Assembly (NCBI GenBank): GCA_035549295.1
Contig: DASZRG010000043.1
Coordinates: 1,910 to 65,909 of the forward strand
DNA: 64,000 nt
Reading direction: 5' to 3'
From: Patescibacteria group bacterium
GTDB lineage: Bacteria > Patescibacteriota > Microgenomatia > Levybacterales > GWA1-39-11
This document shows, piece by piece, positions 10,243 to 35,302 of the stretch. The translations under genes were made by a program, and so were the position numbers. The stretch's first letter is position 1, and every line of letters starts with the position of its first letter. The notes under the pieces were generated by a model. That model was not told where the DNA came from, did no database searches, and saw only the letters and a list, made by a program, of their open reading frames with translations.

Positions 10243-10554
10243 CTACATTTTAATTTCAACATCAACTCCGGCTGGAAGATCAAGGTGAATAAGAGACTCA
10301 ATTGTCTTTTCAGTTGGCGAAATAATATCTATGAGTCTTTTGTGAGTCTTGAGTTGGAAGTGTTCACGAGCATCTTTGTCGATAAAAGGTGACTTATCAA
10401 CTGTAAAAACGCTTCTTTTTGATGGTAGCGGTATAGGACCTGCAATTTTTGCTCCAGTTCTGATAGCCGTATCAAGGATTTGTTGACACGTTGAATCTAT
10501 GATCCTTGAATCATATGATTTTAGTCTAACTCTGATTCTTCCTTTTTGTGCCAT
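10243..10554 (-). CDS. rpsJ: 30S ribosomal protein S10
   Basis: The 103 aa ORF starts [15 protein letters not shown] and carries the S10 fold sequence. Its stop codon lies 3 nt from the convergent NUDIX stop. Confidence 0.95.
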
Positions 10555-10677: not shown

Positions 10678-11859
10678 TTATTTGGTCACTTTAGTAATAA
10701 CTCCGGCTCCTACTGTTCGGCCACCTTCACGAATAGCAAATCTCATTCCTTCTTCAAGTGCGATAGGTACAATAAGCTTTGCACTCATCTTGGTGTTGTC
10801 TCCTGGCATAACCATCTCAACACCCTCACCAAGGAATATTTCACCAGTTACATCAGTCGTTCTGATATAAAACTGTGGTCGGTATCCTTTGAAGAATGGA
10901 GTGTGACGTCCACCTTCTTCTTTGGTAAGAACATAAACTTCAGCTTCAAATTCTGTGTGAGGAGTAATAGATCCTGGTTTTGCTATAACCATTCCACGCT
11001 CAACATCAGCTTTTTCGATACCTCGAAGAAGAAGTCCAGCATTATCTCCTGCTTGAGCATCTTCCAATGTCTTTCGGAAAGCCTCAATTCCTGTGATAAC
11101 TGTTGATTTAGTAGGTTTGATACCAACTATTTCGATTGTGTCGTTAACTTTTGTAATACCGCGTTCTACGCGTCCAGTAACAACTGTTCCGCGACCCTTG
11201 ATTGAGAAAACGTCCTCAACAGGCATAAGGAATGGCTTGTCTGTATCACGAACTGGAGTTGGAATGTACTCATCAACCTTGTCCATGAGCTCCATGATTT
11301 GAGCTTCAGCCTCAGCATCACCTTGAGTTGCTTTAAGAGCTGAACCCTTGATGATTGGTACCTCTGCACCAGGATATTGATATTTTGAAAGAAGTTCACG
11401 AACTTCCATTTCAACGAGATCAATAAGTTCAGGATCTGAAACCATATCAATTTTGTTAAGGAAAACAATAATTGAAGGCACTCCAACCTGGCGAGCAAGA
11501 ACGATGTGTTCACGAGTTTGAGGCATTGGTCCGTCAGCTGCTGAAACAACGAGGATTGCTCCATCCATCTGAGCAGCACCTGTGATCATGTTCTTAACAT
11601 AATCAGCGTGTCCAGGAGCGTCAATGTGAGCGTAGTGTCTTTTGTCTGTTTCGTATTCTTGGTGGGAAATGTTAATCGTAACTCCACGAGCTTTTTCCTC
11701 AGGTGCGTTATCGATATCTTCATATTTTCTTGCTTCTGCGTAACCTTTTTTAGCAAGAACCATTGTGATAGCGGATGTCAAAGTTGTCTTACCATGGTCG
11801 ACGTGACCAATGGTTCCAATGTTGACGTGCGGTTTGTTGCGGTTAAATACTCCAGCCAT
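10678..11859 (-). CDS. tuf: Elongation factor Tu
   Basis: The 393 aa ORF contains [10 protein letters not shown], the DAPGHADY switch region and the NKID motif, and matches EF-Tu along its full length. Confidence 0.97.
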
Positions 11860-16677: not shown

Positions 16678-17070
16678 ATGAAATATAATGACCTTACGGA
16701 TGAAGAGAAACACGTTATTGAGGATCGGGGCACTGAGCGCGCGTTTACGGGTGAATATGACGACTTCTATGTTCCGGGGACTTTTATATGTCGTAAATGC
16801 AATCTCCCTCTATTCTCATCAAAAGCAAAATTTGATGCTGGATGTGGATGGCCGGCGTTTGATGATAATTTTCCAAATGCAATTCGTCGCATGGCTGACC
16901 CTGATGGTGAGCGCACTGAAATAGAATGCGCGAATTGCGGAGCACATCTTGGACATGTTTTTGAAGGTGAGCAGATGACTGAGAAAGATACTAGGCACTG
17001 TGTAAATTCACTTTCTATTCGCTTTGTTAAAGAAGGCGATAAAATACCTCCCACAATAACTGAAGAATAG
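16678..17070 (+). CDS. msrB: Peptide-methionine (R)-S-oxide reductase MsrB, cytoplasmic form
   Basis: The ORF carries two CxxC pairs (CRKC, CANC), the motif GCGWPAF and the catalytic RHCVNS. Confidence 0.9.
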   Translation: MKYNDLTDEEKHVIEDRGTERAFTGEYDDFYVPGTFICRKCNLPLFSSKAKFDAGCGWPAFDDNFPNAIRRMADPDGERTEIECANCGAHLGHVFEGEQMTEKDTRHCVNSLSIRFVKEGDKIPPTITEE

Positions 17071-19833: not shown

Positions 19834-19879
19834 GAATTGATTTATATATTAATTTTTGTCGGGGACGAATTTGAGGGCG
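19834..19879. repeat. Direct repeat copy 2: the functional 3' end of msrB2
   Basis: See copy 1. This copy encodes the actual C-terminus of the 19849..20397 gene. Confidence 0.8.
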
Positions 19880-20397
19880 ATGGAATTCATGCAATAGCGC
19901 TTGCCTGTGGGCTGTGGGCCATCGTCAAAGACGTGGCCCAAGTGGCCGCCGCATTTATCAAGAACTTCTATTCTTGGCTCGCCAGGAATACTATCATCTT
20001 CGCGAAGGACTAATGCATCAAGCTTAATAGGTGCCCAAAATGATGGCCAGCCAGTACCGGAGTCATATTTTTGCTCAGAGCGGAAAACAGGCTCGTTACA
20101 ACCAACGCTGTAATATGTTCCTTTTCGAGTCTCGTGATCTAGCGCTCCAGTAAAGGGCACTTCTGTCCCGGCCTGCCTGAGTATATTGAACTGCTCAGGA
20201 GTCAAGATTTTTTTCCACTCGGCGTCAGACTTGAACTCTGATTTGTCGAAGGATCCGGAGATGATCTTGGCGGTGCTCGCTGAGTTAGAGGTATTAGGAA
20301 TGTTAGTATTGTTAGAAACGAACCTTAGATAAACTAAAACACCGATAAGTACGAAAGCGACTGCGATAAAGGGTAGCTTGTTTTTCATGATGAGCAT
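19849..20397 (-). CDS. msrB: Exported or membrane-anchored MsrB (peptide-methionine (R)-S-oxide reductase)
   Basis: An N-terminal TM or signal segment ([17 protein letters not shown]) is followed by an MsrB domain ([24 protein letters not shown]). Confidence 0.85.
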
Positions 20398-20800: not shown

Positions 20801-22582
20801 TCAGCCAAATGTAAAAGCAAACACTTGAATTCCTGGGGAGAATTCGAGATGCAGTAAGTGTTGGCCAGGTTTACCATGAAGATTGATCAAATCGTAAAGG
20901 CGATCTTGATCTATTGTCACAGTACCGTTTTTAACATCCGCGCCTGAACTCGAATCATCGACTACCTTACCATCCATCAGCACCTTAACGGATCCATTTC
21001 CGCTCGCCGGCTTGTGCATGACAAGATATACATGTTCTGCGGAAAACTTGTATTCCAAAACTGCATTATTACCGGTAGTTGAGTCTTCATCAGCAACTTG
21101 CCAGTTTCCACCAAAATTAAATGAATTAACCGGAATATCAGGTGCAAGATTTAAGTTTTTTTGATTGCCATTATTTATTGATCCATTTGGATAATAGTAT
21201 TCCATTCTTGAGGTACCAACATAAGTCTCAGGTGAAATCTCCTCAGTCGGGGTCTGGTCGGGCATATTAGATAGAGAGCCAGATATTTTTGCTCCCGATT
21301 CTTTTAGAAGCTCACGTATCGCTTCTTCTGACTGGTCATATTCTCCTTCACCAAAATGAGTTCTTCTGACTACTCCATTTTTGTCTATTAGATATTCCGC
21401 TGGCCAATATTGATTTGAGAAAGCATTCCAAGTCGCATAATCGTTGTCCTGAGCAACTGGATAGTGAATATTGTATTGCTTTATTGCATTTGCGACGTTT
21501 GTCGTATCATGCTCAAATGCAAATTCTGGGGTATGAACACCTATTACAACAAATCCATCATCTTTATATTTGTCATACCACGAAGTGACAAATGGCAGTG
21601 TGCGAATACAATTTATACAGGTGTATGTCCAGAAATCTATAAGAACAACTTTTCCTCGAAGATCTTTGAGTGACAGTACCTGCCTGCCGGCAGGCAGGTT
21701 CAGCCAATGATTTATACCAGTTATTTCTGGTGCCGGATAATTTTCATTGAGCAGACCATTAGTGCTTGGAGAAGTTGGCATCGGACTAAAAGGTTGTCCC
21801 ACAATATTTTTGTTTTGACTATTCCCTTTTATACTGTTCAGCTGAGATGTAACCGCAGAGTTGCTTTCGATACTAGTTATGAAGTTTGAATATGAAGGAA
21901 TAGCATTTAGAAGGTTTGCTTCAAGAACTTTGTCATAATTTGAAAATATGAGGAGTGCTGTCGCAATAATTATTACTCCAAAAATTTTCTGGAGATTTCC
22001 TGTATATTTATTAAGTGATCTACTCTTTTGCACAAATCTTTGTCCGGCGTATGAGAAAAGAAACAGTGGAATTCCAACACCTACAAGATAAACAAAAGTT
22101 ACAAGAATAATACTTGCCCCAACTGTGCGAGTCGCAGAAAGCGTTGCAATAGTTGCAAGAATTGGACCTGCACATGGAGCCCAAACAACACCTAGCGCAA
22201 GACCCGAAATAAAACCAGGTAAAAAGCCTCCCGCGAAGCGGGATCCGGCTCCGCCGGATAATTTTCCTGCAAACCCAGACACAAATCCCTCGACAATTCT
22301 AGTCAAGCTTGGAATAACCATTGTTGCACCCAAAAATAGAAGTATTAGAACAGCAACAATTCTTAAAATATTTGGATCAAAACCAAATAATTTAACAAGA
22401 TACGAAATTGATAAAGTTATAAAACCGAAAGAAAGAAGTATTCCAAGTGTTAAACCGAACGGTCTTCTGTGATCACCTCCGGCTGCCGCAGATGAGAGAA
22501 CAATAGGAAGGAGAGGCCATATACATGGGGCAGCAATCGTTACCAGACCAGATAGAAATGCAAAAAACAAAAGAATAACCAT
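20801..22582 (-). CDS. Fusion of a CcdA/DsbD-type thiol-disulfide transporter with a TlpA/ResA-like thioredoxin domain
   Basis: The N-terminal polytopic region has a conserved Cys (AAPCIWPLLP, WAPCAGP), as in CcdA. A thioredoxin fold (LIDFWTYTCINCIRTLP) follows, then an Asn/Ser-rich C-terminal domain. Confidence 0.8.
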   Translation of the reverse strand: MVILLFFAFLSGLVTIAAPCIWPLLPIVLSSAAAGGDHRRPFGLTLGILLSFGFITLSISYLVKLFGFDPNILRIVAVLILLFLGATMVIPSLTRIVEGFVSGFAGKLSGGAGSRFAGGFLPGFISGLALGVVWAPCAGPILATIATLSATRTVGASIILVTFVYLVGVGIPLFLFSYAGQRFVQKSRSLNKYTGNLQKIFGVIIIATALLIFSNYDKVLEANLLNAIPSYSNFITSIESNSAVTSQLNSIKGNSQNKNIVGQPFSPMPTSPSTNGLLNENYPAPEITGINHWLNLPAGRQVLSLKDLRGKVVLIDFWTYTCINCIRTLPFVTSWYDKYKDDGFVVIGVHTPEFAFEHDTTNVANAIKQYNIHYPVAQDNDYATWNAFSNQYWPAEYLIDKNGVVRRTHFGEGEYDQSEEAIRELLKESGAKISGSLSNMPDQTPTEEISPETYVGTSRMEYYYPNGSINNGNQKNLNLAPDIPVNSFNFGGNWQVADEDSTTGNNAVLEYKFSAEHVYLVMHKPASGNGSVKVLMDGKVVDDSSSGADVKNGTVTIDQDRLYDLINLHGKPGQHLLHLEFSPGIQVFAFTFG

Positions 22583-25757: not shown

Positions 25758-26408
25758 TCAGATCTGGCCGTTTTTTAGTCTTTTTGAAAAATCTTCAAGA
25801 AGCTGCTCGAACGAATTAACAGGAATAACGTTTGCCGGAAGTTCAAGTCCCGCCCAATGCCTAAACACAGCGTTGTTAGTGAAATTTTTCATAACATATG
25901 CCAATACATTAGACGGCAAATTCATACTTACTGCCAAATCATCATCCACCTCAACTACTGAGTAGCCTTCGTCAACTTTAGTTTTAACAGTATTTACCTT
26001 ATATGGCAATGAATGCTTACGACCATCATGGGGATTTAAGTTAAAGTCGTCAATCACACTTCTGTAGCCCCACTTATAAAACCATTGTCTTGTTGTCTCA
26101 TGGTGCCGTGGTTCCCTTCCAGATAGAATATCAACACTTACCGCGCGACCTTCCTGGGCTACAATATTTCTAAAACTCCTAACCATCTCTGCTCCTCCGG
26201 GTTTTGGCATTCTATGTTCATATTTTGAATCGCCATCACCCTGAACTGTCGTTGCACTTAGAGTGTCATGTGCGGTTAATATTGGAACTATTAAATTTGA
26301 TCTTCGGATGAGTTTCCAGGCAGTTGGACCTGGCAACGGAGCATTAACGTGCACTCCATCGGCGTCGTTTTGAAATGAAATAGGACTTGGTAATTCACCG
26401 CTTGGCAT
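25758..26408 (-). CDS. Hypothetical protein (216 aa)
   Basis: Clean ORF; no recognised motif. Confidence 0.45.
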   Translation of the reverse strand: MPSGELPSPISFQNDADGVHVNAPLPGPTAWKLIRRSNLIVPILTAHDTLSATTVQGDGDSKYEHRMPKPGGAEMVRSFRNIVAQEGRAVSVDILSGREPRHHETTRQWFYKWGYRSVIDDFNLNPHDGRKHSLPYKVNTVKTKVDEGYSVVEVDDDLAVSMNLPSNVLAYVMKNFTNNAVFRHWAGLELPANVIPVNSFEQLLEDFSKRLKNGQI

Positions 26409-26445
26409 TTCCGGATGGTAACAGAGTCGACTTTAAAAGTCAAAG

Positions 26446-27399
26446 CTAGCTTACAATTTCCACCTCAACTTCCGGCGTAAAGTTGAATGTCTCGACGAAT
26501 TTTTCCTGAATTGCCTTAATTATTGAAAGTACGTCTGTTGCTTTTGCGCCGCCTAGATTGACAATAAAATTTCCATGCTTTGACGAGACCATCGCATTAC
26601 CTACTCTATATTCTGAAAAATTGAGTCTTTTTATCAAATAACCCATAGCAACTTTTCCATACCAATCGCGCTTTATTTTATCTTCTAGATCAGGAAACAC
26701 TTCAATTATTGACTGAGTGTGTTCGGGGTCTGAGATATTTTTGAAAACACTTCCGCAATTTGGATATTCCAGGGGATGGCGAACTCTTCTATACTCCATG
26801 TTGTTAACATAAGTCTGTCTTGCTTTGAGAACCGTTGCATCATCTACTTTTGTAAGTCTGAATTGCGCCGAAATAACTCCAAGTTTTTTCATTTTTACTA
26901 ATGAATTGCGATAAGAAAATTTAAGTTCAAATCTTTTTAAAACTTTGAATTTTGGTTTACCATTTATCACCTCAAATATCTCTACCTCTTTTACGCTATC
27001 CTTTATTTCTCCTCCAAATGCGCCGACATTGCCGCGAATTGCAGCACCTACATCCCCAGGAAGGCCACCTGCCCATTCAAGACCAACGAGGTTATTATTT
27101 AGTGCAAACTTTACAAGATCATCAAGCACAACACCCGCATCTGCCTCTATGATATGTGGTTTTAAGAGTCTTATTTTGCCGGGAACAAAACGAATAACAG
27201 CTCCATCAAAATATTCATCTGTGAAAATGAGATTTGAACCAGTCCCAAGAAAAAATGTTTTGGTAATCTTTTCTCGTTTTAACAACTCAAATACCTTTTT
27301 GATATCATCCTTATTTTCGACATCATATAGATATTTAACTAGTCCACCAATTCGATAGTAAAGGATATCCGATATTTTAAAGTCTGAATAAAGTTTCAT
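26446..27399 (-). CDS. murB: UDP-N-acetylenolpyruvoylglucosamine reductase
   Basis: An FAD-binding domain is followed by the MurB C-terminal domain (GLEWAGGLPGDVGAAIRGNVGAFGGEI). Confidence 0.85.
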   Translation of the reverse strand: MKLYSDFKISDILYYRIGGLVKYLYDVENKDDIKKVFELLKREKITKTFFLGTGSNLIFTDEYFDGAVIRFVPGKIRLLKPHIIEADAGVVLDDLVKFALNNNLVGLEWAGGLPGDVGAAIRGNVGAFGGEIKDSVKEVEIFEVINGKPKFKVLKRFELKFSYRNSLVKMKKLGVISAQFRLTKVDDATVLKARQTYVNNMEYRRVRHPLEYPNCGSVFKNISDPEHTQSIIEVFPDLEDKIKRDWYGKVAMGYLIKRLNFSEYRVGNAMVSSKHGNFIVNLGGAKATDVLSIIKAIQEKFVETFNFTPEVEVEIVS

Positions 27400-27489
27400 A
27401 TCTAGGAAATTCTAGTGCTATTCCTAATCAAGCACCAAATTCAAAATAACAAGATCCAAATAATTTTTCAAATATAAATTTTCAAACTA

Positions 27490-27849
27490 TTAAGATTTAT
27501 TTGCTATTGCTGCAAAGATTTTAACAAATTCACTCGCCTCCTGCATTAGAGGTTCCAATTCACGTCTGAAGTCTAAATTTGCGTCTATGAGCAGGTCAAA
27601 CCAATAAACAGTTTCCTTCGACTCTTTTCTACAGATTCTTATCCTAAAAAAGAAATCCTTTTTTGTTTCTGTTTCATTTGCTTCTCGATAATTTGCACCG
27701 ATTGAGGTCGCTGATCTTACAAGTTGATCTATTAGTTTAAAATTAACGGTATTCTTGGGTAAAGAGCTTAAAACTTTAATCGTTTTCTTGCTGAACTCTA
27801 AAGTTCTATCTTCTAAGTCATACTTTTTAATGTTTGATGCTTGAGACAT
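27490..27849 (-). CDS. Four-helix-bundle protein (23S rRNA intervening-sequence protein / bAvd-like family)
   Basis: The sequence LIDQLVRSATSIGANYREANETETKKDFFFRIRICRKESKETVYWFDL matches the TIGR02436-type four-helix-bundle family. Confidence 0.75.
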   Translation of the reverse strand: MSQASNIKKYDLEDRTLEFSKKTIKVLSSLPKNTVNFKLIDQLVRSATSIGANYREANETETKKDFFFRIRICRKESKETVYWFDLLIDANLDFRRELEPLMQEASEFVKIFAAIANKS

Positions 27850-27881
27850 TATTTGGAACTTGGAATTTGGAATTTGATGCT

Positions 27882-29675
27882 TTAGTCTCTTGTTGCGTCG
27901 GCAACATGTTCTTCTTCCAGGCGGAAGATACCTTCATCAAGTCTTTTTTGATCAAGGAAATGGGAGATAAATCCAATTGAGCGGGATGCGACAAAAATTG
28001 CGTTAAAGAATTCAATATCTACAAGCTGCTTTAATTCATCAACTGAATAGCCTTCCTTTTCTGATAATAAATCAAGAAGTACCGCAGCTATTGATCCATC
28101 TATATTGAGAATGAGATTTCCCTTTTTCGCAACTGTTACTTTTTCTATTTCTTTTGCAAATTTTGTGTACTTGGCATCAAGTCCTTCTGTGAAAGACAGA
28201 ACTTCAGCAACACGCGGATCTGGAATATCAACTCTATATTTTCTGTGACCTATTCCTGAAATATATTTTTTATTTGCCGCAAATTCTTCAACAAACTTTG
28301 ATGCATCAACATCTCGTTCAACACCCATCACAAAATTTGCTGCTGCTTCATTTATGGCCCCTCCAAATCGTGGACCTATTGTTAAAATTCCTGTAGCTAG
28401 TGACGACACAAGATCGCGTCCTGCGCGTGCTGTAATAATGGTATTAACTGCACCTGATACATATGGACCATGGTCAACAAGAAGTTTGAGAACAAAATTC
28501 ATAAAATCTTCGAGTTCTTGTGACTTGATTTTTTTTCCAAGAAACATTGAGGCAACAACGTACCCAAACGAGTGATTTTTTGAAAAACTCAAAAGTTCTT
28601 CACCCACTATTTTGACACTTCCACCATCATCCCTTGAAATACTTGTTGATATAAGTCCATGTTTTCGACTGTCCATATCATCTATTATAGCCTGTTTCTC
28701 ATCATTTTCTTCCGATAACTCCTGAGGTATCTCGCTCATCATTTGCACAAATTCAGAAAAGCTTTCTGCGACATGAACTCCGGCGTCCCTCAGAGCATCT
28801 CGTTTGGCGCGAGCTGTCTCGCGCGCGTTTGCCGCCATTGCTTTCGCATGACCAAATTGCGGAGCTGTTGGGAAAATTTCAGCAACGGTTCCCGCAATAT
28901 AACAATAAACAGGTTTTGTAAGTTTTCCGCTTTGTATAAGTTCACAAACTCCATATTCATCCGTTCCACCTAGCTCTCCAAAATAAACTATATACTCAGT
29001 TGCCGCATCATTTTCAGCCGCAAGGAATGCTTCTTTTGGTGGAGTTGCAGGAAATCTTTCACCTCCGAAATGGAGCGCAAATGAAATATTTTTCTTGTGT
29101 TGTGCAAGAATGTTTATAAGCTCATTCGTTGTCCCACCTGATGCTGAAAAAACCGCAATGTTACCTCGCTTAAATAAGCGTGCATCAACCAGTTGTCTAT
29201 GCGTAACTCCTCCGATAGCACCAAGTTTTACAATATTCGGAATAATAAGTCCCACCGATGCTGGACCGATGATAAATATATTTTTCGCATCGGCAAGAGT
29301 CTTAAGATCTATCGCATGTTTTTCTGGAACACCTTCTGCAAAAACAGTACCGCCAATAATCGACGGTAATTTTTCAATCGCGTCAGCCGATGAAACAAAA
29401 GCGCGTCTACCCGATGAAACATTTATAAAATATGTGATAGCCTCACGAAGATCACTTGGGATTTTTGCAACTTCAGAATAGACGGGAATTAAAATTTCTT
29501 TTTTTCCAAAAAAGTATCTCTCAAATCGACGGCCCGCAGCAACAATTCCAATAATCGATGGTTTAGTATTTCCCGATGTAAATTCAAAATCTAGAATTGA
29601 TTGAATTATCGACGGATAAGATCCGATGAATAATATTTTTTTGTCTGAACTGATTATTTTGTCTATGCTGATCAT
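27882..29675 (-). CDS. aclA: ATP-citrate lyase subunit A-like protein (succinyl-CoA-synthetase-alpha-like CoA-binding domain plus citrate-synthase-like citryl-CoA lyase domain)
   Basis: Alignable blocks to ATP-citrate lyase include KEILIPVY, IIGPASVGLI, the phospho-His loop QFGHAKAMAA, HGPYVSGAVNTIITARAGRDLVSSLATGILTIGPRFGGA, GIGHRKYRVDIPDPR, KKGNLILNIDG and FISHFLDQKRL. Confidence 0.85.
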   Translation of the reverse strand: MISIDKIISSDKKILFIGSYPSIIQSILDFEFTSGNTKPSIIGIVAAGRRFERYFFGKKEILIPVYSEVAKIPSDLREAITYFINVSSGRRAFVSSADAIEKLPSIIGGTVFAEGVPEKHAIDLKTLADAKNIFIIGPASVGLIIPNIVKLGAIGGVTHRQLVDARLFKRGNIAVFSASGGTTNELINILAQHKKNISFALHFGGERFPATPPKEAFLAAENDAATEYIVYFGELGGTDEYGVCELIQSGKLTKPVYCYIAGTVAEIFPTAPQFGHAKAMAANARETARAKRDALRDAGVHVAESFSEFVQMMSEIPQELSEENDEKQAIIDDMDSRKHGLISTSISRDDGGSVKIVGEELLSFSKNHSFGYVVASMFLGKKIKSQELEDFMNFVLKLLVDHGPYVSGAVNTIITARAGRDLVSSLATGILTIGPRFGGAINEAAANFVMGVERDVDASKFVEEFAANKKYISGIGHRKYRVDIPDPRVAEVLSFTEGLDAKYTKFAKEIEKVTVAKKGNLILNIDGSIAAVLLDLLSEKEGYSVDELKQLVDIEFFNAIFVASRSIGFISHFLDQKRLDEGIFRLEEEHVADATRD

Positions 29676-29747
29676 TTTTTTTCCTTGTCATTCTTAAGGA
29701 GCAACGCGACTGAAGAATCTTTGTTAAAGATCCTTCGAGCTTCGCTC

Positions 29748-30935
29748 TCAGGATGACAAACTTATAATTGCTTCACCTACAATATCTGACACCACAAATT
29801 CCGGGCCATGAACTGCACCTAGTAGCTTATTTTCATCTAAGAATTTTCTCATAATCTCAAGGCCTTCTTTCTGATGTGGACCACCGCGTCTTACAAAAAC
29901 TTTAACTCCTTGCTCTTGAAGATCTGGTACGACATCCGATATAGCACGAATAACTCCCAAAAAAGTCGTTCTAATATCTGTAAAGTTTGCAACTCCTCCA
30001 CCGATAATTAACACCTTTTTCTTCGCCTGAGATTTTAAAAGTAGAGAAAGTAAATTTTTTGCATAGAGAAATGTCTCCTCTTCAGTCGGATTTCCAGAAT
30101 ACTCTCCATAGTTTGCAAGTTCTCCACCATATCCAAGACTCTGGACTTCATCTGCCAGCATTACACTCACTCCTCCACCTGAGAGCAACATAAAAATAGA
30201 ACCATTAGGATTGAGAACAGTTAGCGTAAGCGACGATGAACTTTTCTCGGCAACTTTTGCAATATTTTTCTCTTCCTCAGTTTTATCAAGCTTTGCGGAT
30301 CGGATATCGTGACTACTCCAGTTATCGACAAAAAATTCAGCAGCCGAATCTACTTCACTTGCTATATCAAGCATGAACGGTGTCTTAAAAGAAATAACAA
30401 GAGGATTTATCTCAAGGAATGAAAAATAATTTATTTCAAAAACTTCAATTATTTTGGTAAGAAAGTCAGGACTTAATTCTATTTTTGACGCGACTTCTTC
30501 TATATCTTTTGGATCTGTAATCAGATGTTTTTTTACTTCATGCTCATACGCTTCAACATCAACTCCACCCTTACTTGAGTAATAAAGGACAGTCCCCTCC
30601 CCCGCTCTCTCAAGTGCAAGATAGTGTTCTTCTGAATCTTCATGAGCTATCATTTCCTCAATCAAAAAATGAGAATATCCTTTTTTACTCAGTTCTGAAA
30701 CTGCATCTATTATGTCGTTTGCTTTTTCAAGATCAAGTTTTATAAGTCCTTGTTTAAATCTCTTTTTAATTCCTTGATCAACTTTAACAACGTATTTTTT
30801 ATCGGTCTTTACTGAATCTTCGATCTTTGAAATTGGATCATGATCTATCGTGAAAGGGAAACCAGAATATGGTGTTTTGAGATGATTGTTGACGATAGTT
30901 TTTGCGCGAAATTCGGATAACTTTACTCGTGGCAT
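29748..30935 (-). CDS. aclB: ATP-citrate lyase subunit B-like protein (ATP-grasp, succinyl-CoA-synthetase-beta-like)
   Basis: Blocks matching the ACLY N-terminal half include YLEINPLV, LTVLNPNGSIFMLLSGGGVSVM, ELANYGEYSGNPTEEETFLYAKNLLSLL, KVLIIGGGVANFTDI and VFVRRGGPHQKEGLEIM. Confidence 0.85.
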   Translation of the reverse strand: MPRVKLSEFRAKTIVNNHLKTPYSGFPFTIDHDPISKIEDSVKTDKKYVVKVDQGIKKRFKQGLIKLDLEKANDIIDAVSELSKKGYSHFLIEEMIAHEDSEEHYLALERAGEGTVLYYSSKGGVDVEAYEHEVKKHLITDPKDIEEVASKIELSPDFLTKIIEVFEINYFSFLEINPLVISFKTPFMLDIASEVDSAAEFFVDNWSSHDIRSAKLDKTEEEKNIAKVAEKSSSSLTLTVLNPNGSIFMLLSGGGVSVMLADEVQSLGYGGELANYGEYSGNPTEEETFLYAKNLLSLLLKSQAKKKVLIIGGGVANFTDIRTTFLGVIRAISDVVPDLQEQGVKVFVRRGGPHQKEGLEIMRKFLDENKLLGAVHGPEFVVSDIVGEAIISLSS

Positions 30936-30992
30936 ACTAGTATCAAGTATAAGGTATTAGGTATAAAGTATAAAGAGGCAGCGGCAATAAGA

Positions 30993-31766
30993 TTAAACTT
31001 CAATTCTCATCATATCTTCGCCAACAATGACTTCGCAATTGGCAATATTTTTGATGGTTGCGATCATCTCCTCTTCGCGACCCACGCATTGAGGACCAAT
31101 ATGAGTTAAAACTACTTTCTTAAATCCGCCAATTTTTGCCAAGTTACCAATATCCTCGGGACATAAATGATTACCTATCAATGACTTTTTATCCGGGAAG
31201 GAACATTCAAGTATTGCTATATCGGCATTGCGACCTAGCTCACATATTGTTTCGTCATAACCCATATCTCCTGAATAGACAATGGATTTATCTGAAAAAT
31301 CCAATCGATATGCAAGACTATCTGCGGTGTGTTTTATGCGTGAAGTTGTTACTTTAAAATCAGATGAAGCAATAACAGTACCATCATTAATACTTTGAAT
31401 ACTAAATACATCTTCTAATTTGAAATCTTCTTTATACAATTTCCAAACATTCAACATAATGTCTTGCACACTTGGTGGAACGTTAACTAAAACTTTTTCA
31501 AGTTTTCTATTACGAGTCTCCACGCATCGTCCCTGCATAAATTGGATAAGATCCACATTGTGGTCTATGTGATGATGAGTAATAAAGATATGAGTTGGTT
31601 TAACAAATATATCCATCCCACTCGAGAGCATTTTATGTAACACGCCACCGCCCATATCAAATAATAAATACGAGTCTCCAATTTCAATTCCCCAACCGGA
31701 ATACGATCTAAGCGGTTTATTAGGGGACGGCGCACAGAATCCGGTGCCGTAGAGAGTTAATTGCAT
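30993..31766 (-). CDS. MBL-fold metallo-hydrolase
   Basis: An HxHxDH motif (ITHHHIDHNVD) with downstream His/Asp ligands in a 257 aa ORF. Confidence 0.75.
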   Translation of the reverse strand: MQLTLYGTGFCAPSPNKPLRSYSGWGIEIGDSYLLFDMGGGVLHKMLSSGMDIFVKPTHIFITHHHIDHNVDLIQFMQGRCVETRNRKLEKVLVNVPPSVQDIMLNVWKLYKEDFKLEDVFSIQSINDGTVIASSDFKVTTSRIKHTADSLAYRLDFSDKSIVYSGDMGYDETICELGRNADIAILECSFPDKKSLIGNHLCPEDIGNLAKIGGFKKVVLTHIGPQCVGREEEMIATIKNIANCEVIVGEDMMRIEV

Positions 31767-31912
31767 GAGGATATTATATCAGTAAGGAGAGTTGGGGGAG
31801 TAAGGTAAGTTAGGGGTTAGTAATGACGTTGGGATACGGAAGAGATTCTGAAACAAGTTCAGAATGACGACGTTGGATGGTCAATTGTCAGTTGTTAATT
31901 GTCAATTGTAAA

Positions 31913-34060
31913 TTACTGGGCTGTAATGCGGCCTGTGAATGTGGATTTTGCGAGCATTGCTTGGACAATGTTCTGTGGAACTTCTTCATAGTGTGATGGC
32001 TCCATGTAGTAAGTTGCGCGACCCTGTGACATAGACCTGAGAGTTGTTGCATAACCTGAAAGCTCTGATAGTGGAACCATTGCAAGAATAATTCTTGCAT
32101 TTCCACGCTCTTCAGATCCTGAAATCTGTGCACGCTTTGAAGAAAGATCTCCAATAACATCTCCCATAAACTCCTCAGGTGTTGTGACTTCAACTTTCAT
32201 GATTGGCTCAAGAAGTTTCATGTCACCTTTTTTAGCTGCTGCTTGAAGTGCCATAGATGCAGCAATCTTAAATGCGATATCTGACGAATCGACATCATGA
32301 TATGAACCATCGTAAACAGTAACTTTCAAATCAACAATTGGATACCCTAATAGAATTCCTTTCTCGAGAGTTTCAGCAACTCCCTTACTGACTGATGTTA
32401 CAAATTCCGCTGGAATCGCACCACCCTTAATTGCATTTACAAACTCATATCCTTCACCGCGTGGATTTGGCTGAATTCTCAACCAACAATGTCCATATTG
32501 TCCTCGTCCTCCTGTTTGCTTAATATACTTACCCTCCCCTGTTGCTTCAATTCCAAATGTCTCTTTGTATGCAACTTGAGGAGCACCAACATTTGCAAGC
32601 ACATTAAATTCTCGCTTCATACGGTCTACCATGATCTCAAGTTGAAGCTCTCCGACTCCAGAAATAATAGTCTGGTTGGTCTCGTGGTTGGTCTTAACTG
32701 TAAATGTTGGATCTTCTTCCATGAGACGCTTTAGAGCAAGCCCCATTTTTTCTTGGTCTGATTTGGTCTTTGGCTCAATGGCAAGTGAAATAACAGGTTC
32801 TGGGAAGGTAATCTTTTCAAGAACAATTGGTTTTGTTTCATCACAAATTGTATCTCCGGTTATTGTGTCTTTAAGCCCTACTACAGCAACTATTTCTCCA
32901 GCATAAGCTTCCGCTATCTCTTCTCTCTGATTGGAGTGCATCAGAAGAAGTCGACCTACACGCTCTTTTACATCGCGAGTTGAATTGTAAGCGTAAGAAC
33001 CGGATACCAACTTACCAGAATATATACGAACGAAAGTAATTTTTCCGACGTGCGGATCAATTTGGACCTTAAATGCAAATCCTGTAAATGCCTCTTCAGG
33101 AACTAATTTTCTTGTTTCATCAGTATTTGTCTTTGGATTGATACCCTTAACTTCACCAAGATCAGCAGGAGATGGAAGGTAGTCAACAACTGCATCAAGA
33201 AGTGGCTGAACTCCTTTGTTGCGAAGCGATGTACCTGCATAGATTGGAACTAATTTATATCCGACAACTGCTTTGCGAAGTCCTTGTTTCAACTCTTCAT
33301 TTGAGATCTCTTCACTGTTGAGGTATTTTTCAAGAAGTGTGTCGTCATTTTCTGCAATCTTTTCGATCATCTTGTGACGATATTCCTCAACTTGTGCCTT
33401 CATATCAGCAGGAATTTCATCTGAAATATCGTACTTTGCTCCAAGCTCTTCCCCGCCCCAAGTAAGTGCTTTCATATTGAGAAGATCAACAACTCCTTTA
33501 AAATCGTTCTCAGCACCAATCGGAAGAACCATAATGCATGGGTTTGCACCGAGTCTATCCTCAATTGATTTAACGGTCTTTAGAAAGTCAGCACCGAGCT
33601 TGTCCATTTTGTTAACAAAACAAATTCTTGGAACATGATATTTATCAGCCTGACGCCATACAGTCTCTGACTGTGACTGTACACCTTCTTCTGCATCAAG
33701 AACAGTTACGGCTCCATCTAAAACACGAAGTGAACGCTCAACCTCTGCTGTAAAGTCGACGTGCCCGGGAGTATCAATAAGATTTATTCTGTATGGGATA
33801 TCTTGCCCTTCTGAACGTCCAAGTGGTGTATGTGTCCAAAAAGTGGTAGTTGCCGCAGAAACGATAGTAATACCTCGCTCTCGCTCTTGGTCCATCCAGT
33901 CCATTACTGTATTTCCATCGTCGATATCTCCAATTTTGTATGACTTTCCAGTATAGTAAAGAATACGTTCTGAGGTGGTTGTTTTACCTGCATCAATATG
34001 CGCAATAATTCCAATGTTGCGAATTTTATCGAGTGGTACTTGTCGTGATGTGTCTGCCAT
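31913..34060 (-). CDS. fusA: Elongation factor G
   Basis: The 715 aa ORF has the N-terminus [22 protein letters not shown] and matches EF-G along its full length. Confidence 0.97.
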
Positions 34061-34204
34061 AAATAAAAATAAACTCGAGCTACTTGCCTCGAGGTTTATA
34101 TTCTATCAAAAATTTCCTCCCCCTGCAATAATGCGCAGTGGCTGAGTTGGATCATCACTGATTGTAAACTGATTCACGCTGATTTAATTTCACAAAATGA
34201 TTTT

Positions 34205-34213
34205 TGCTATAAT
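34205..34213 (+). promoter_or_regulatory. Extended -10 element TGCTATAAT, 6 nt upstream of the pepP ATG (leaderless configuration)
   Basis: TGnTATAAT lies at 34205-34213 and the ATG at 34220. Confidence 0.45.
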
Positions 34214-34219
34214 CGTCCA

Positions 34220-35302
34220 ATGAGTGGAAACAGAATTAAAATTCTTCAGGAGAATTTGGTGGATTATAAGATTGATGCGCTCCTTGTTTCATCGGCTATT
34301 AATATTCAATATCTAACAGGTTACTCGAACTTCTCAAAAGATGAGAGGGAGGCGTATCTTTTTGTTACGGGAACATCCGCAACTCTTTTTACTGACTCAA
34401 GATACATTGAGGCGGTCGAAAAAATCATTCCTAAAAATGTTAATGCCACAACCAAAAGACCAATTTCTGATGAAATAAACAAAATCGTAAAAGAAGAAAA
34501 CGTTGAAAAAATTGGTTTTGAAAATAACTTTACATATGATGAGCATTCGCGATTTAAAAAGAAAATATCTGCAAAACTTGTTTTGGTCGACAGCCTAATT
34601 GAAGAACTTCGAAGCGTAAAGGATGATTCAGAAATTGAATCAATTAAAAAAGCTGCAGCACTAACCGACAAAACGTTTACATTTATTAAAAATCAAATAA
34701 AGATCGGTTCTACAGAAAAACAAATTGCGTGGGAAATGGAGAAATATATTCGAGAAAATGGTGGCATCTTGGCTTTCGATACTATAGTAGCTTTCGGTGC
34801 AAATTCTTCGGTGCCGCATCACTTAACATCAGATAAAAGACTTAAGACTGAAGATGAATTTGTTTTACTTGATTTCGGATCGAGAGTCGACGGATACTGC
34901 TCTGACATGACGCGGACTATTCTCACAGAAAGCGCATCGGATCGCGCAAGAAAAATTTATGAAGCAGTTTTAGAAGCTCAAGAGTCATCCGCTCAATTGA
35001 TTAATCAATTAATCAAAGCGTCAAAACCTGTTGATGGAGCAGTTATTGCTCGACGCGCAAATGAAGTATTAAAACAACATGGGTTTGCCGACGTTCCACA
35101 TGGGCTCGGCCATGGGATAGGACTTGAAGTACATGAGCTACCTCATCTTCATCCAAAATTGACAGACGAAATACTTGTTGAGGAGAATTATTTCTCAATA
35201 GAACCAGGAATATATATACCAGGATTTGGTGGAGTTAGAATTGAGGATGATTATTTGATGACAAAGAATGGGCTTGAGCAAGTAACAAAATCACCGAAGT
35301 AA
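34220..35302 (+). CDS. pepP: Xaa-Pro aminopeptidase / M24 family metallopeptidase
   Basis: The pita-bread fold carries metal ligands in the motifs HGLGHGIGLEVHE and DGYCSDMTRT. Confidence 0.85.
   Translation: MSGNRIKILQENLVDYKIDALLVSSAINIQYLTGYSNFSKDEREAYLFVTGTSATLFTDSRYIEAVEKIIPKNVNATTKRPISDEINKIVKEENVEKIGFENNFTYDEHSRFKKKISAKLVLVDSLIEELRSVKDDSEIESIKKAAALTDKTFTFIKNQIKIGSTEKQIAWEMEKYIRENGGILAFDTIVAFGANSSVPHHLTSDKRLKTEDEFVLLDFGSRVDGYCSDMTRTILTESASDRARKIYEAVLEAQESSAQLINQLIKASKPVDGAVIARRANEVLKQHGFADVPHGLGHGIGLEVHELPHLHPKLTDEILVEENYFSIEPGIYIPGFGGVRIEDDYLMTKNGLEQVTKSPK

What the first reader, a model, noticed from the sequence alone, without database searches (positions are those of the whole stretch)
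27882..30935. A two-subunit ATP-citrate lyase (aclB-aclA) in a genome with a reduced-genome character
The 395 aa and 597 aa ORFs align block by block with the N-terminal ATP-grasp half and with the C-terminal CoA-binding plus citryl-CoA-lyase half of ATP-citrate lyase, including the phospho-His loop (FGHAKA). Gene order is aclB then aclA, as in green sulfur bacteria. ACL is the signature enzyme of the reductive TCA cycle or of cytosolic acetyl-CoA supply. Its presence in a small, apparently fermentative genome is unexpected. It is flanked by an MBL-fold hydrolase and a four-helix-bundle protein. It could instead act as a citryl-CoA synthetase/lyase-like system on a different substrate.
Basis: partly seen in the sequence, partly recalled or inferred. 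Interest (0 to 1): 0.6.

Follow-up and report, generated by a model that had tools for sequence, protein, structure and literature searches.

The report
ATP-citrate lyase in a CPR bacterium
The two genes encode what looks like a complete, working ATP-citrate lyase in a tiny symbiotic (CPR/Patescibacteria) bacterium, and across this group its neighbours are acetyltransferase and cell-wall sugar genes, so it most likely makes acetyl-CoA for biosynthesis from scavenged citrate rather than fixing CO2.

Summary
The ORFs at 29748-30935(-) (395 aa) and 27882-29675(-) (597 aa) are AclB and AclA of a heteromeric ATP-citrate lyase. ACL-specific Pfam domains are present. AclA scores 356 bits to human ACLY, 346 to Methanosaeta concilii ACLY and 240 to Chlorobium AclA. 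All catalytic and citrate-binding residues checked are present.

The host is a Levybacteria-related Patescibacteria MAG. The enzyme is not an oddity of this genome. At least 596 GTDB species representatives encode relatives, and the best 80 are almost all CPR. They form one clade (196/200 NJ bootstraps), and their active-site residues are invariant.

No rTCA partner gene occurs in the window or in ±10 kb of 81 related loci. Instead aclBA is flanked, often with gaps of 0-12 bp, by:
- GNAT acetyltransferases (31/81 loci; odds ratio 34)
- MurB
- GlmS
- a GlmM-like mutase

In one out-group locus the neighbour is an amino-sugar aminotransferase plus an LbH acetyltransferase.

Best reading: citrate + ATP + CoA gives acetyl-CoA + oxaloacetate as a biosynthetic acetyl-CoA supply, the same role as in the eukaryotic cytosol. 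This is a new member of a known enzyme kind. The physiological role is inferred, not shown.

The parts
29748..30935 (-). aclB: small (beta) subunit of ATP-citrate lyase, 395 aa
   Evidence: ORF. Pfam Citrate_synth_N 101.6 bits and Citrate_bind 196.2 bits. PDB: human ACLY N-terminal half 212 bits, M. concilii ACLY-A 199 bits, Chlorobium AclB 129 bits.
30324..30920 (-). AclB ATP-grasp domain (residues 6-204)
   Evidence: PF24948 match at residues 6-204.
29766..30284 (-). AclB citrate-binding domain (residues 218-390). It holds G253-G255, S280, G281, N317-F318-T319 and R350, which align with human G281-283, S308, G309, N346-F347-T348 and R379.
   Evidence: PF16114 match at residues 218-390. Residue correspondences were counted in the alignment. 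They are invariant in 78 CPR AclB sequences, except T319, which is T in 75 and S in 3.
29676..29747 (-). 72-bp aclB-aclA spacer with an AGGA ribosome-binding motif before the aclA ATG
   Evidence: Sequence read. In 71 of 75 related loci this gap is 20 bp or less, median -4 bp.
27882..29675 (-). aclA: large (alpha) subunit of ATP-citrate lyase, 597 aa
   Evidence: ORF. Pfam Ligase_CoA and Citrate_synt. PDB: human ACLY 356 bits over residues 495-1086, M. concilii ACLY-B 346 bits, Chlorobium AclA 240 bits. By contrast SCS-alpha scores 81 bits or less, CCL 66 and the CCS small subunit 61.
28716..29675 (-). AclA CoA-binding / CoA-ligase half (residues 1-320). E114, S179-G180-G181 and H276 align with human E599, S663-G665 and H760.
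   Evidence: alignment, invariant columns, and (81/81 conserved). The residue set defining the catalytic centre comes from PMC11365397.
28839..28856 (-). Phospho-histidine loop F-G-H-A-K-A (residues 274-279)
   Evidence: Aligned with human QFGHAGA, H760. Q273-F274-G275-H276-A277 are invariant in alignment A1.
27882..28658 (-). AclA citryl-CoA-lyase / citrate-synthase-homology module (residues ~340-597). H402, H477, R478, D526, R565 and R585 align with human H900, H975, R976, D1026, R1065 and R1085.
   Evidence: PF00285 79.9 bits. The isolated human CCL module 6hxk scores 168 bits over residues 343-586. The roles of H900, R976, D1026 and R1065 are described in PMC10115795.
26446..27399 (-). murB (UDP-N-acetylenolpyruvoylglucosamine reductase), two genes downstream on the same strand. 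This is the recurrent neighbour of aclBA in the Levybacteria-type loci.
   Evidence: Pfam MurB_C and FAD_binding_4. MurB lies within 3 genes of aclBA in 15 of 81 loci, against 2 among 880 ORFs further away.
30993..31766 (-). MBL-fold hydrolase upstream of aclB. This is context only and is not conserved with aclBA.
   Evidence: Its cluster c86 sits next to aclBA only in this genome's own contigs (L001, L002) and in L007.
27490..27849 (-). Four-helix-bundle protein (23S rRNA IVS family) downstream of aclA. This is context only and is not conserved with aclBA.
   Evidence: TIGR02436 82.4 bits. It is not a recurrent neighbour.
31913..34060 (-). fusA (EF-G), the upstream landmark. In Levybacteria-type genomes aclBA lies in the gap between fusA and tuf.
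   Evidence: EF-Tu is at 10678..11859(-) and S10 at 10243..10554(-).

Best explanation
aclB-aclA encode a functional heteromeric ATP-citrate lyase of the archaeal/eukaryotic-type ACLY lineage.

Mechanism, inferred from conserved residues and the known ACLY mechanism:
1. AclB's ATP-grasp domain binds MgATP.
2. His276 of AclA (FGHAKA) is phosphorylated.
3. The phosphate passes to citrate held in the AclB citrate-binding domain.
4. CoA attacks citryl-phosphate to give citryl-CoA.
5. Citryl-CoA is cleaved to acetyl-CoA and oxaloacetate. The C-terminal citrate-synthase-homology module is required for this.

Physiological role, inferred from gene neighbourhoods: this Levybacteria-related CPR bacterium probably lacks a TCA cycle. 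There the enzyme is not part of a reductive TCA cycle. It is a dedicated source of acetyl-CoA, with oxaloacetate as co-product, made from citrate obtained from a host or the environment. The acetyl-CoA feeds N- and O-acetyltransferases and the UDP-GlcNAc / peptidoglycan / envelope-glycan pathway. That is the same role ACLY plays in the eukaryotic cytosol.

Shown here: enzyme identity, conserved active site, CPR-wide clade, and tight linkage to acetyltransferase and amino-sugar genes.
Inferred: reaction direction, citrate as an imported substrate, and the acetyl sink.
For: Identity:
- ACL-specific Pfam domains are present.
- Full-length alignments to human ACLY and M. concilii ACLY reach E 1e-102 to 1e-105, while SCS, CCS, CCL and citrate synthase score at most 81 bits.

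Active site:
- hG281-283, S308, G309, N346, F347, R379, E599, S663-G665, H760, H975, D1026, R1065 and R1085 are 100% conserved in 78 AclB / 81 AclA CPR sequences.
- H900 is conserved in 79/81, and R976 is R or K in 80/81.

Native gene, vertically kept:
- GC is 0.39, like the rest of the window.
- The gene pair sits at the same place, between fusA and tuf/S10, in the window, L003, L005 and other Levybacteria loci.
- The CPR clade is recovered in 196/200 bootstraps.

Role:
- Across 81 loci, GNAT genes lie within 3 genes in 31 (23 directly adjacent). That is 32 GNAT ORFs among 446 near ORFs against 2 among 880 far ORFs (odds ratio 34, p 9e-14), in 19 distinct flank contexts.
- MurB: 15 near vs 2 far. 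GlmS: 8 vs 2. GlmM-like: 6 vs 1.
- An unbiased Pfam count of 149 directly adjacent genes puts GNAT first (21), then MurB (9), GlmS (6), PGM/PMM (4) and Acyl_transf_3 (4). No TCA family is in the top 25.
- Neighbour identities: GlmS 765 bits (cut-off 381); GlmM 440 bits (cut-off 447.55).
- Median intergenic gaps: GNAT to aclB 2 bp, aclA to GlmS 1.5 bp, aclA to GlmM-like 2.5 bp, aclA to MurB 12 bp, against about 35 bp for other same-strand neighbours.
- L003 has Alr-Ddl directly upstream.
- Independent support: in out-group locus L091, aclBA directly follows a DegT aminotransferase/oxidoreductase fusion and a hexapeptide-repeat acetyltransferase inside a glycan cluster.
- CPR genomes 'contain few if any TCA cycle genes' (PMC8407418).
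Against: - No whole-genome inventory could be made. Only 64 kb of this genome and ±10 kb around relatives were seen, so the absence of TCA genes and of other acetyl-CoA sources is not shown for this organism.
- Some CPR encode PFOR (PMC12114108), so ACL need not be the only acetyl-CoA source.
- No citrate transporter was identified near any locus.
- In the window itself the only pathway-related neighbour is MurB, which does not itself use acetyl-CoA. No GNAT is adjacent here.
- The GNATs could not be assigned a substrate. Their best NCBIfam and PDB hits are generic and below cut-off.
- The enrichment p-values ignore phylogenetic non-independence.
- 32 of 81 loci show none of the four families within 3 genes.
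- ORF starts were taken as the first start codon, so short gaps are approximate.
Confidence: 0.6

Rival explanations
1. Catabolic citrate use. ACL splits imported citrate. The acetyl-CoA is converted to acetate with ATP recovery (Pta/AckA or ADP-forming acetyl-CoA synthetase), and oxaloacetate is decarboxylated or reduced and fermented. ACL then stands in for the ATP-independent citrate lyase CitDEF as an energy and carbon route.
For: The enzyme is intact and citrate-specific by residues. CPR are described as fermenters that make acetate, lactate and ethanol (PMC12114108). The step is ATP-neutral if acetyl-CoA is turned into acetate plus ATP (own reasoning).
Against: No acetate-forming, oxaloacetate-decarboxylating or malate/lactate dehydrogenase gene recurs near aclBA in 81 loci. 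The recurrent neighbours consume acetyl-CoA or build amino sugars, not fermentation products.
Confidence: 0.2
2. Signature enzyme of a reductive TCA cycle: autotrophic CO2 fixation, as in green sulfur bacteria.
Against: - The sequence is far from the Chlorobiaceae type: 240 vs 356 bits, and P0189 lies outside the clade.
- No OGOR, fumarate reductase, aconitase, IDH or MDH was found in the 64-kb window or among recurrent flank families of 81 loci.
- CPR genomes carry few if any TCA genes.
- The host has a small episymbiont-type genome.
Confidence: 0.03
3. The enzyme runs in reverse as an ATP-yielding citrate synthase (acetyl-CoA + oxaloacetate + ADP + Pi gives citrate + ATP + CoA). This has been reported for Desulfobacter postgatei (own knowledge: Möller et al. 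1987).
For: The ACLY reaction is reversible. Citryl-CoA forms from the products in vitro (PMC10115795).
Against: It would need a stoichiometric supply of oxaloacetate and a sink for citrate, and no aconitase or IDH context was seen. The neighbourhood points to acetyl-CoA consumers, not producers.
Confidence: 0.05
4. An ACL-like enzyme acting on a substrate other than citrate: a CCS/CCL-like system for another di- or tricarboxylate.
For: The CPR clade has no characterised member. It differs from human ACLY at H908, which is V in the window and V/L/M/I/F across the clade. NCBI names the large subunit 'citrate/2-methylcitrate synthase'.
Against: The citrate-site residues G309, N346, F347, T348 and R379 are invariant or nearly so across 78 species, as are the CCL-module residues H900, H975, D1026, R1065 and R1085. 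The Citrate_bind domain scores 196 bits. H908 is not among the residues described as functional in the papers read.
Confidence: 0.07

Closest known systems
Methanosaeta (Methanothrix) concilii heteromeric ACLY-A/B (PDB 6hxi, 6znw)
   Same: It has the same two-subunit architecture: a roughly 400-aa ATP-grasp plus citrate-binding subunit, and a roughly 600-aa CoA-ligase subunit with a fused citryl-CoA-lyase module. Full-length matches: AclA 346 bits, AclB 199 bits.
   Different: The window protein belongs to a separate CPR-specific clade (196/200 bootstraps). The host is a bacterial episymbiont-type organism, not a methanogen. The relationship of the two clades is unresolved.
Eukaryotic ATP-citrate lyase (human ACLY; PDB 6hxh, 6poe, 6uuw and others)
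   Same: It is the best-scoring solved relative (356 and 212 bits). All catalytic-centre, citrate-site and CSH-module residues checked are shared. The proposed role is also the same: supplying acetyl-CoA for biosynthesis and acetylation outside a TCA cycle.
   Different: Human ACLY is a single fused polypeptide of about 1100 aa with a regulatory linker. Here there are two genes. H908 is V in the window and hydrophobic across the clade. R976 is K in 50 of 81 clade members, though it is R in the window.
Chlorobium limicola/tepidum AclBA (rTCA-cycle ACL; PDB 6hxj)
   Same: Two subunits, gene order aclB-aclA, same chemistry.
   Different: Similarity is much lower (240 and 129 bits). The Chlorobiaceae representative P0189 lies far from the CPR clade. 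It works within a complete rTCA cycle, for which there is no evidence here.
Citryl-CoA synthetase + citryl-CoA lyase of Hydrogenobacter thermophilus (PDB 6hxq, 6hxp)
   Same: The same two half-reactions and homologous domains.
   Different: There the lyase is a separate protein, whereas here it is fused to AclA. Scores are only 61 bits (CCS small subunit), 66 bits (CCL) and 44 bits (CCS large subunit).
Succinyl-CoA synthetase (SucCD)
   Same: The same superfamily of ATP-grasp and CoA-ligase domains with a phospho-His loop.
   Different: NCBIfam SucC/SucD scores are 47 and 113 bits against cut-offs of about 340-375. SCS has no citrate-binding domain and no citrate-synthase-like module.

Membership tests
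ATP-citrate lyase (EC 2.3.3.8), heteromeric AclA/AclB type | Small subunit with an ACL-type ATP-grasp domain followed by the ACL citrate-binding domain | tested here: met
   PF24948 101.6 bits (cut-off 83) and PF16114 196.2 bits (cut-off 26.8).
ATP-citrate lyase (EC 2.3.3.8), heteromeric AclA/AclB type | Large subunit with a CoA-binding/CoA-ligase domain that carries the catalytic phospho-histidine loop | tested here: met
   PF00549 41 bits. FGHAKA His276 aligns with human H760. H is present in 81/81 clade members.
ATP-citrate lyase (EC 2.3.3.8), heteromeric AclA/AclB type | Citryl-CoA-lyase / citrate-synthase-homology module fused to the C-terminus of the large subunit | tested here: met
   PF00285 79.9 bits over residues 268-585. 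The isolated human CCL module 6hxk scores 168 bits over residues 343-586.
ATP-citrate lyase (EC 2.3.3.8), heteromeric AclA/AclB type | Catalytic-centre residues G281-283, S308, E599, S663, G664-665 and H760 (human numbering; PMC11365397) | tested here: met
   All are present in the window and 100% conserved in 78-81 CPR sequences.
ATP-citrate lyase (EC 2.3.3.8), heteromeric AclA/AclB type | Citrate-binding residues G309, N346, T348, R379. Their roles are taken from my own knowledge of the ACLY-citrate crystal structures, not from a paper read here. | tested here: met
   They correspond to window G281, N317, T319 and R350. They are invariant, except T348, which is T in 75 and S in 3.
ATP-citrate lyase (EC 2.3.3.8), heteromeric AclA/AclB type | CSH-module residues H900, R976, D1026, R1065 (PMC10115795) | tested here: met
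   They correspond to window H402, R478, D526 and R565. Across the clade: H900 79/81; R976 is R in 30, K in 50 and L in 1; D1026 81/81; R1065 81/81.
ATP-citrate lyase (EC 2.3.3.8), heteromeric AclA/AclB type | Citrate-, ATP- and CoA-dependent formation of acetyl-CoA and oxaloacetate | not testable with these tools
   This needs an enzyme assay on expressed protein.
Reductive TCA cycle (autotrophic CO2 fixation) | The same genome encodes 2-oxoglutarate:ferredoxin oxidoreductase, fumarate reductase and the other cycle enzymes | tested here: inconclusive
   None was found in the 64-kb window or among recurrent families in ±10 kb of 81 related loci. The rest of the genome could not be read. The literature says CPR have few if any TCA genes.
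Reductive TCA cycle (autotrophic CO2 fixation) | ACL groups with the ACLs of known rTCA autotrophs (Chlorobi type) | tested here: not met
   Chlorobium AclA scores 240 bits against 346-356 for the archaeal and human enzymes. P0189 (Chlorobiaceae) lies outside the CPR clade, which has 196/200 support.
Citryl-CoA synthetase / citryl-CoA lyase two-enzyme system | The lyase is a separate polypeptide, and the synthetase small subunit lacks a citrate-synthase-like domain | tested here: not met
   The CS-like module is fused to AclA. CCS and CCL score 44-66 bits only.
Succinyl-CoA synthetase | Scores above the NCBIfam SucC/SucD cut-offs, with no citrate-binding or CS-like domain | tested here: not met
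   47 and 113 bits against cut-offs of 336-375. The extra ACL domains are present.

The most novel reading that the evidence does not exclude
aclBA together with the tightly linked GNAT (or LbH) acetyltransferase and GlmS/GlmM/MurB genes forms a conserved module in ultrasmall episymbionts. These cells would import host citrate as their acetyl-unit currency, a prokaryotic analogue of the mitochondrion-to-cytosol citrate shuttle. They would spend it mainly on N-acetylating cell-envelope amino sugars. The adjacent GNAT might then act as the glucosamine-phosphate N-acetyltransferase, in place of the GlmU acetyltransferase domain.
Probability: 0.25. Interest if true: 0.7.

Novelty: new member of a known kind. 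Interest (0 to 1): 0.45.

Why it matters
CPR/Patescibacteria make up a large share of bacterial diversity. They lack most central metabolism, and what they take from their hosts is largely unknown.

A conserved, intact ATP-citrate lyase in hundreds of their species, wired to acetyltransferase and peptidoglycan-precursor genes, gives a concrete and testable answer to where their acetyl-CoA comes from. It also nominates citrate as a host-derived metabolite.

There are practical consequences too:
- aclAB hits in metagenomes should not be scored automatically as evidence of rTCA carbon fixation.
- NCBI's product names for these genes ('citrate/2-methylcitrate synthase', 'hypothetical protein') are misleading.

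Tried and rejected
1. Promoter and terminator scans of 26300-34300 gave counts no higher than shuffled sequence (30 vs 23.2±4.6; 6 vs 5.5±2.5). They say nothing about operon structure.

2. I tried to read the roughly 15 kb of the source contig beyond the window through a window protein. Only a 4.7-kb duplicate contig came back, twice.

3. Naming clades through cluster members was mostly fruitless, because few members carry names. Labels rest on P0127 (Dojkabacteria), P0137 (Norongarragalinales), P0146 (Saccharibacteria), P0189 (Chlorobiaceae) and on PDB scores.

4. The sister group of the CPR clade is unresolved. The commonest candidate (P0133+P0140+P0146) appears in only 42/100 bootstraps, and the 'sister6' grouping from the first NJ tree has no support (0-1/200). 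Only NJ on corrected p-distances was possible, because no ML software was available.

5. The substrate specificity of the GNATs could not be assigned. PDB and NCBIfam hits are generic (polyamine-, RimI- and PhnO-like) and below cut-offs.

6. I looked for existing fitness data. The Tn-seq tables for Southlakia epibionticum contain no citrate-related gene, only an SCS-like pair scored non-essential. That organism therefore appears to lack this ACL.

7. Literature searches found no paper on the function of ACL in CPR. There are only passing mentions.

8. H908 to V looked at first like a lost active-site histidine. It is not among the functional residues in the papers read, and the neighbouring H900 is conserved.

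Full report
**1. What is there**

Two same-strand ORFs lie on the minus strand. One runs 29748..30935 (395 aa) and the other 27882..29675 (597 aa). They are separated by 72 bp containing an AGGA motif just upstream of the second ATG.

- The first protein carries the ACL-specific ATP-grasp domain (PF24948, 101.6 bits, cut-off 83) and the ACL citrate-binding domain (PF16114, 196.2 bits).
- The second carries a CoA-ligase domain and a citrate-synthase-like domain.
- NCBIfam models for succinyl-CoA synthetase, citryl-CoA lyase and citrate synthase all match only partially and far below their cut-offs.

Against the sequences of solved structures:

| Subunit | Human ACLY | M. concilii ACLY | Chlorobium | Other relatives |
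|---|---|---|---|---|
| AclA (597 aa) | 356 bits (residues 495-1086) | 346 bits | 240 bits | SCS-alpha ≤81, CCL 66, CCS small subunit 61 |
| AclB (395 aa) | 212 bits | 199 bits | 129 bits | CCS large subunit 44 |

**2. Active site**

I counted through the and alignments.

- The window proteins keep the residues that PMC11365397 lists as the citryl-CoA-synthesis centre. These are G281-283, S308, E599, S663, G664-665 and the phospho-His H760. In window numbering they are AclB G253-255 and S280, and AclA E114, S179-G181 and H276 in FGHAKA.
- They keep the citrate-site residues G309, N346, F347, T348 and R379. The roles of these come from my own knowledge of the ACLY-citrate structures.
- They keep the CSH-module residues H900, R976, D1026 and R1065 discussed in PMC10115795, plus H975 and R1085.
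- The one difference I noticed, human H908 to V, is at a position not described as functional in the papers read.

**3. Whose genome**

- A protein 100% identical to AclA is recorded from a 'Patescibacteria group bacterium' MAG. The contig is CAZMXU010000064.1 of GCA_964570355.1, 81 kb.
- The nearest named relatives (64-69% identity) are Candidatus Levybacteria. Levyibacteriota belong to the Microgenomates group of the Patescibacteria group.
- GC content of the aclBA region (0.39) matches the rest of the window.
- Read along the minus strand, the window runs: rpoB/C, S12, S7, PPIase, …, EF-G, MBL hydrolase, aclB, aclA, four-helix-bundle protein, MurB, about 14 kb of mixed genes, EF-Tu, S10, L3, L4.
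- The same placement of aclBA between fusA and tuf/S10 is seen in a 467-kb contig (L003), in a named Levybacteria contig (L005) and in many other loci.

The genes are therefore native, stably inherited in this lineage, and not on an island.

**4. How widespread**

It returned 600 pattern matches, of which 596 were confirmed relatives.

The best 80 (45-67% identity, full length) are almost all CPR: Levyibacteriota, Woesebacteria, Roizmanbacteria, Magasanikbacteria, many Saccharibacteria/Saccharimonadales, Kaiserbacteria, Paceibacterota and Minisyncoccia. Several MAGs carry placeholder labels such as 'uncultured Gammaproteobacteria', but their ACL sequences fall inside the CPR clade and several share the Levybacteria gene order.

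An exhaustive search of 1.84 billion representative proteins found 146 representatives at E ≤ 1e-30.

In an NJ tree of 135 AclA sequences the CPR sequences form a single clade, with the window inside the Levybacteria subclade. On an 81-sequence subsample, that clade was recovered in 196 of 200 bootstraps.

The Chlorobiaceae enzyme (P0189) lies far outside. Nearer neighbours include:
- a Micrarchaeia (DPANN) sequence (P0137);
- a second, Saccharibacteria-labelled type (P0146);
- a sequence scoring 597 bits to M. concilii (P0133).

The immediate sister group is not resolved (42/100 at best).

Across 78 AclB and 81 AclA sequences of the clade, the catalytic and citrate-site residues listed above are invariant or nearly so. 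That argues for strong selection on a citrate-cleaving enzyme and against a change of substrate.

**5. What it is for**

No TCA or rTCA gene is present in the window ORFs scanned.

I called ORFs in ±10 kb of 81 non-redundant loci and clustered them.

- aclB accompanies aclA in 77 loci. The other four are cut by a contig end.
- The aclB to aclA gap has a median of -4 bp.

The other recurrent neighbours are not metabolic partners of a cycle.

| Family | Loci with it within 3 genes (of 81) | Directly adjacent | ORFs near / far* | Odds ratio, p | Median gap to aclBA |
|---|---|---|---|---|---|
| GNAT acetyltransferase | 31 | 23 | 32 / 2 | 34, p 9e-14 | 2 bp (same-strand GNAT to aclB) |
| MurB | 15 | 9 | 15 / 2 | 15.3, p 4e-6 | 12 bp |
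| GlmS | 8 | 6 | 8 / 2 | 8.0, p 3.5e-3 | 1.5 bp |
| GlmM-like mutase | 6 | 4 | 6 / 1 | 12.0, p 7e-3 | 2.5 bp |

*Near = 446 ORFs within 3 genes; far = 880 ORFs further away. Other same-strand neighbours have a median gap of about 35 bp.

- GNAT linkage occurs in 19 distinct flank contexts.
- 49 of 81 loci have at least one of the four families within 3 genes.
- GlmS scores 765 bits against a cut-off of 381. The GlmM-like protein scores 440 bits, just under its cut-off of 447.55.
- Other recurring neighbours are nucleotidyl-transferases, sugar epimerases/dehydratases, glycosyltransferases and membrane O-acyltransferases.
- An unbiased Pfam tally of the 149 directly adjacent genes ranks GNAT first (21). 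MurB (9), GlmS (6), PGM/PMM (4) and Acyl_transf_3 (4) follow. No TCA family appears in the top 25.
- L003 has Alr and Ddl immediately upstream.

Outside the CPR clade there is an independent case. In L091, aclBA directly follows a DegT aminotransferase/oxidoreductase fusion and a hexapeptide-repeat acetyltransferase within a polysaccharide cluster. That acetyltransferase has a fold unrelated to GNAT.

In a DPANN locus the adjacent gene is a class I/II aminotransferase, which could take the oxaloacetate.

Other recurrent flank families are housekeeping or type IV pilus genes.

Together with the published statement that CPR genomes have few if any TCA genes, the best-supported reading is this. 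ACL cleaves scavenged citrate to supply acetyl-CoA, plus oxaloacetate, for acetylation reactions and for amino-sugar and peptidoglycan precursor synthesis. This is inference from gene linkage. The direction of the reaction, the source of citrate and the acetyl acceptors are not shown.

**6. Rivals**

- A catabolic citrate-fermentation role is possible. It has no neighbourhood support.
- An rTCA role is disfavoured by phylogeny, context and host biology.
- Reverse, ATP-yielding operation lacks any oxaloacetate-supply or citrate-sink context.
- A different substrate is disfavoured by the invariant citrate site.

**7. Novelty**

The enzyme kind is well known. The sequences are already in public databases. 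JGI calls some of them 'ATP citrate (pro-S)-lyase', while NCBI calls them 'citrate/2-methylcitrate synthase' or hypothetical.

Two papers mention the matter in passing:
- A 2022 preprint notes CPR and DPANN sequences mis-annotated as SCS or CS.
- A 2025 paper lists aclAB as enriched in Saccharimonadia MAGs.

I found no paper combining Levybacteria with citrate lyase, and none discussing what ACL does in CPR.

The window's genes are therefore a new member of a known kind. The apparently unreported part is the CPR-wide clade with conserved linkage to acetyltransferase and cell-envelope genes. It offers a testable hypothesis about what these symbionts take from their hosts.

**8. Limits**

- Only 64 kb of this genome could be read.
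- Trees are NJ only.
- Enrichment statistics are not corrected for shared ancestry.
- ORF starts are approximate.
- In this particular window the only pathway-related neighbour is MurB.

Noticed in passing
window 10243-34060 (-); also L003, L005: In this genome about 20 kb of unrelated genes (aclBA, murB, DNA glycosylase, DsbD-thioredoxin fusion, MsrB, chromate transporter, PIG-L deacetylase, an 822-aa orphan) sit between fusA and tuf, which are normally adjacent in the str operon. Related Levybacteria share the split, with aclBA always just after fusA.
   Followed up: partly
L091 4040-9755: An out-group aclBA pair lies inside a polysaccharide-synthesis cluster. Directly upstream are a DegT aminotransferase/GFO oxidoreductase fusion and a 176-aa hexapeptide-repeat acetyltransferase. 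Directly downstream are an epimerase and glycosyltransferases. The organism is unknown (Logan SRR23086398).
   Followed up: partly
L088 4240-8536 (Candidatus Norongarragalinales archaeon, DPANN): A DPANN archaeon carries a related aclBA next to a divergently oriented class I/II aminotransferase. A Lyase_1 gene and an ornithine carbamoyltransferase lie nearby, which hints that oxaloacetate/aspartate is used there.
   Followed up: no
L093 3107-6104 (archaeal contig with PcrB and Rpr2): Here the aclB position holds a 277-aa ORF with no Pfam hit plus a 93-aa Citrate_bind fragment. This may be a frameshift or a split gene. A 2-oxoacid:ferredoxin oxidoreductase alpha/beta pair lies just upstream.
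   Followed up: no
P0130 (1003 aa): This representative matches AclA through its residues 20-599 and then has about 400 extra C-terminal residues. This is the opposite of the eukaryotic AclB-AclA fusion order. It was not examined.
   Followed up: no
L008, L009, L012, L013, L018, L019, L024, L025 and others: Many MAGs titled 'uncultured Gammaproteobacteria bacterium' carry ACL sequences that fall inside the CPR clade, and several share the Levybacteria gene order (EF-G, aclBA, MurB). The organism names look like placeholders or mislabels. One 'Dormiibacterota' (L064) and one 'Gemmatimonadetes' (L086) record may be mis-binned.
   Followed up: partly
Supplementary tables of PMC10633639: The cultivated Saccharibacterium Southlakia epibionticum has no citrate-related gene in its tables. 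It does have an SCS-like beta/alpha pair (SEML1_0896/0897) wedged between glycosyltransferase genes and scored non-essential by Tn-seq. This may be another acyl-CoA-forming enzyme tied to envelope glycans.
   Followed up: no
window 12157-14625 (-): An 822-aa ORF between EF-Tu and a PIG-L family deacetylase has no Pfam match at E ≤ 0.001.
   Followed up: no
window 50378-53388 (-): A 757-aa protein with weak Baseplate_J-like and GlxA beta-barrel hits lies directly upstream of a sortase and abuts it. It may be a sortase-anchored surface protein.
   Followed up: no
window 55671-60499 (+): An HlyD-type membrane-fusion protein and a 1108-aa AcrB/RND transporter form a pair. This is noteworthy in a CPR bacterium, a group generally thought to lack an outer membrane.
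   Followed up: no
window 53574-55502 (-): The alanyl-tRNA synthetase is only 642 aa. By my recollection that is well short of the usual bacterial length (about 870 aa), so it may be a shortened form.
   Followed up: no
window 16678-17070 (+), 19849-20397 (-), 20801-22582 (-): Two MsrB (SelR) genes and a DsbD-TM/AhpC/thioredoxin fusion cluster within about 6 kb. That is a notable investment in oxidative-damage repair for a small genome.
   Followed up: no
window 30993-31766 (-): The MBL-fold neighbour is precomputed as Anti-Pycsar_Apyc1-like. Its best NCBIfam hits are RNase Z (98 bits) and a cyclic-nucleotide-degrading phosphodiesterase (87 bits), both far below cut-off. Its function is unclear, and it is linked to aclBA only in the closest relatives.
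   Followed up: partly
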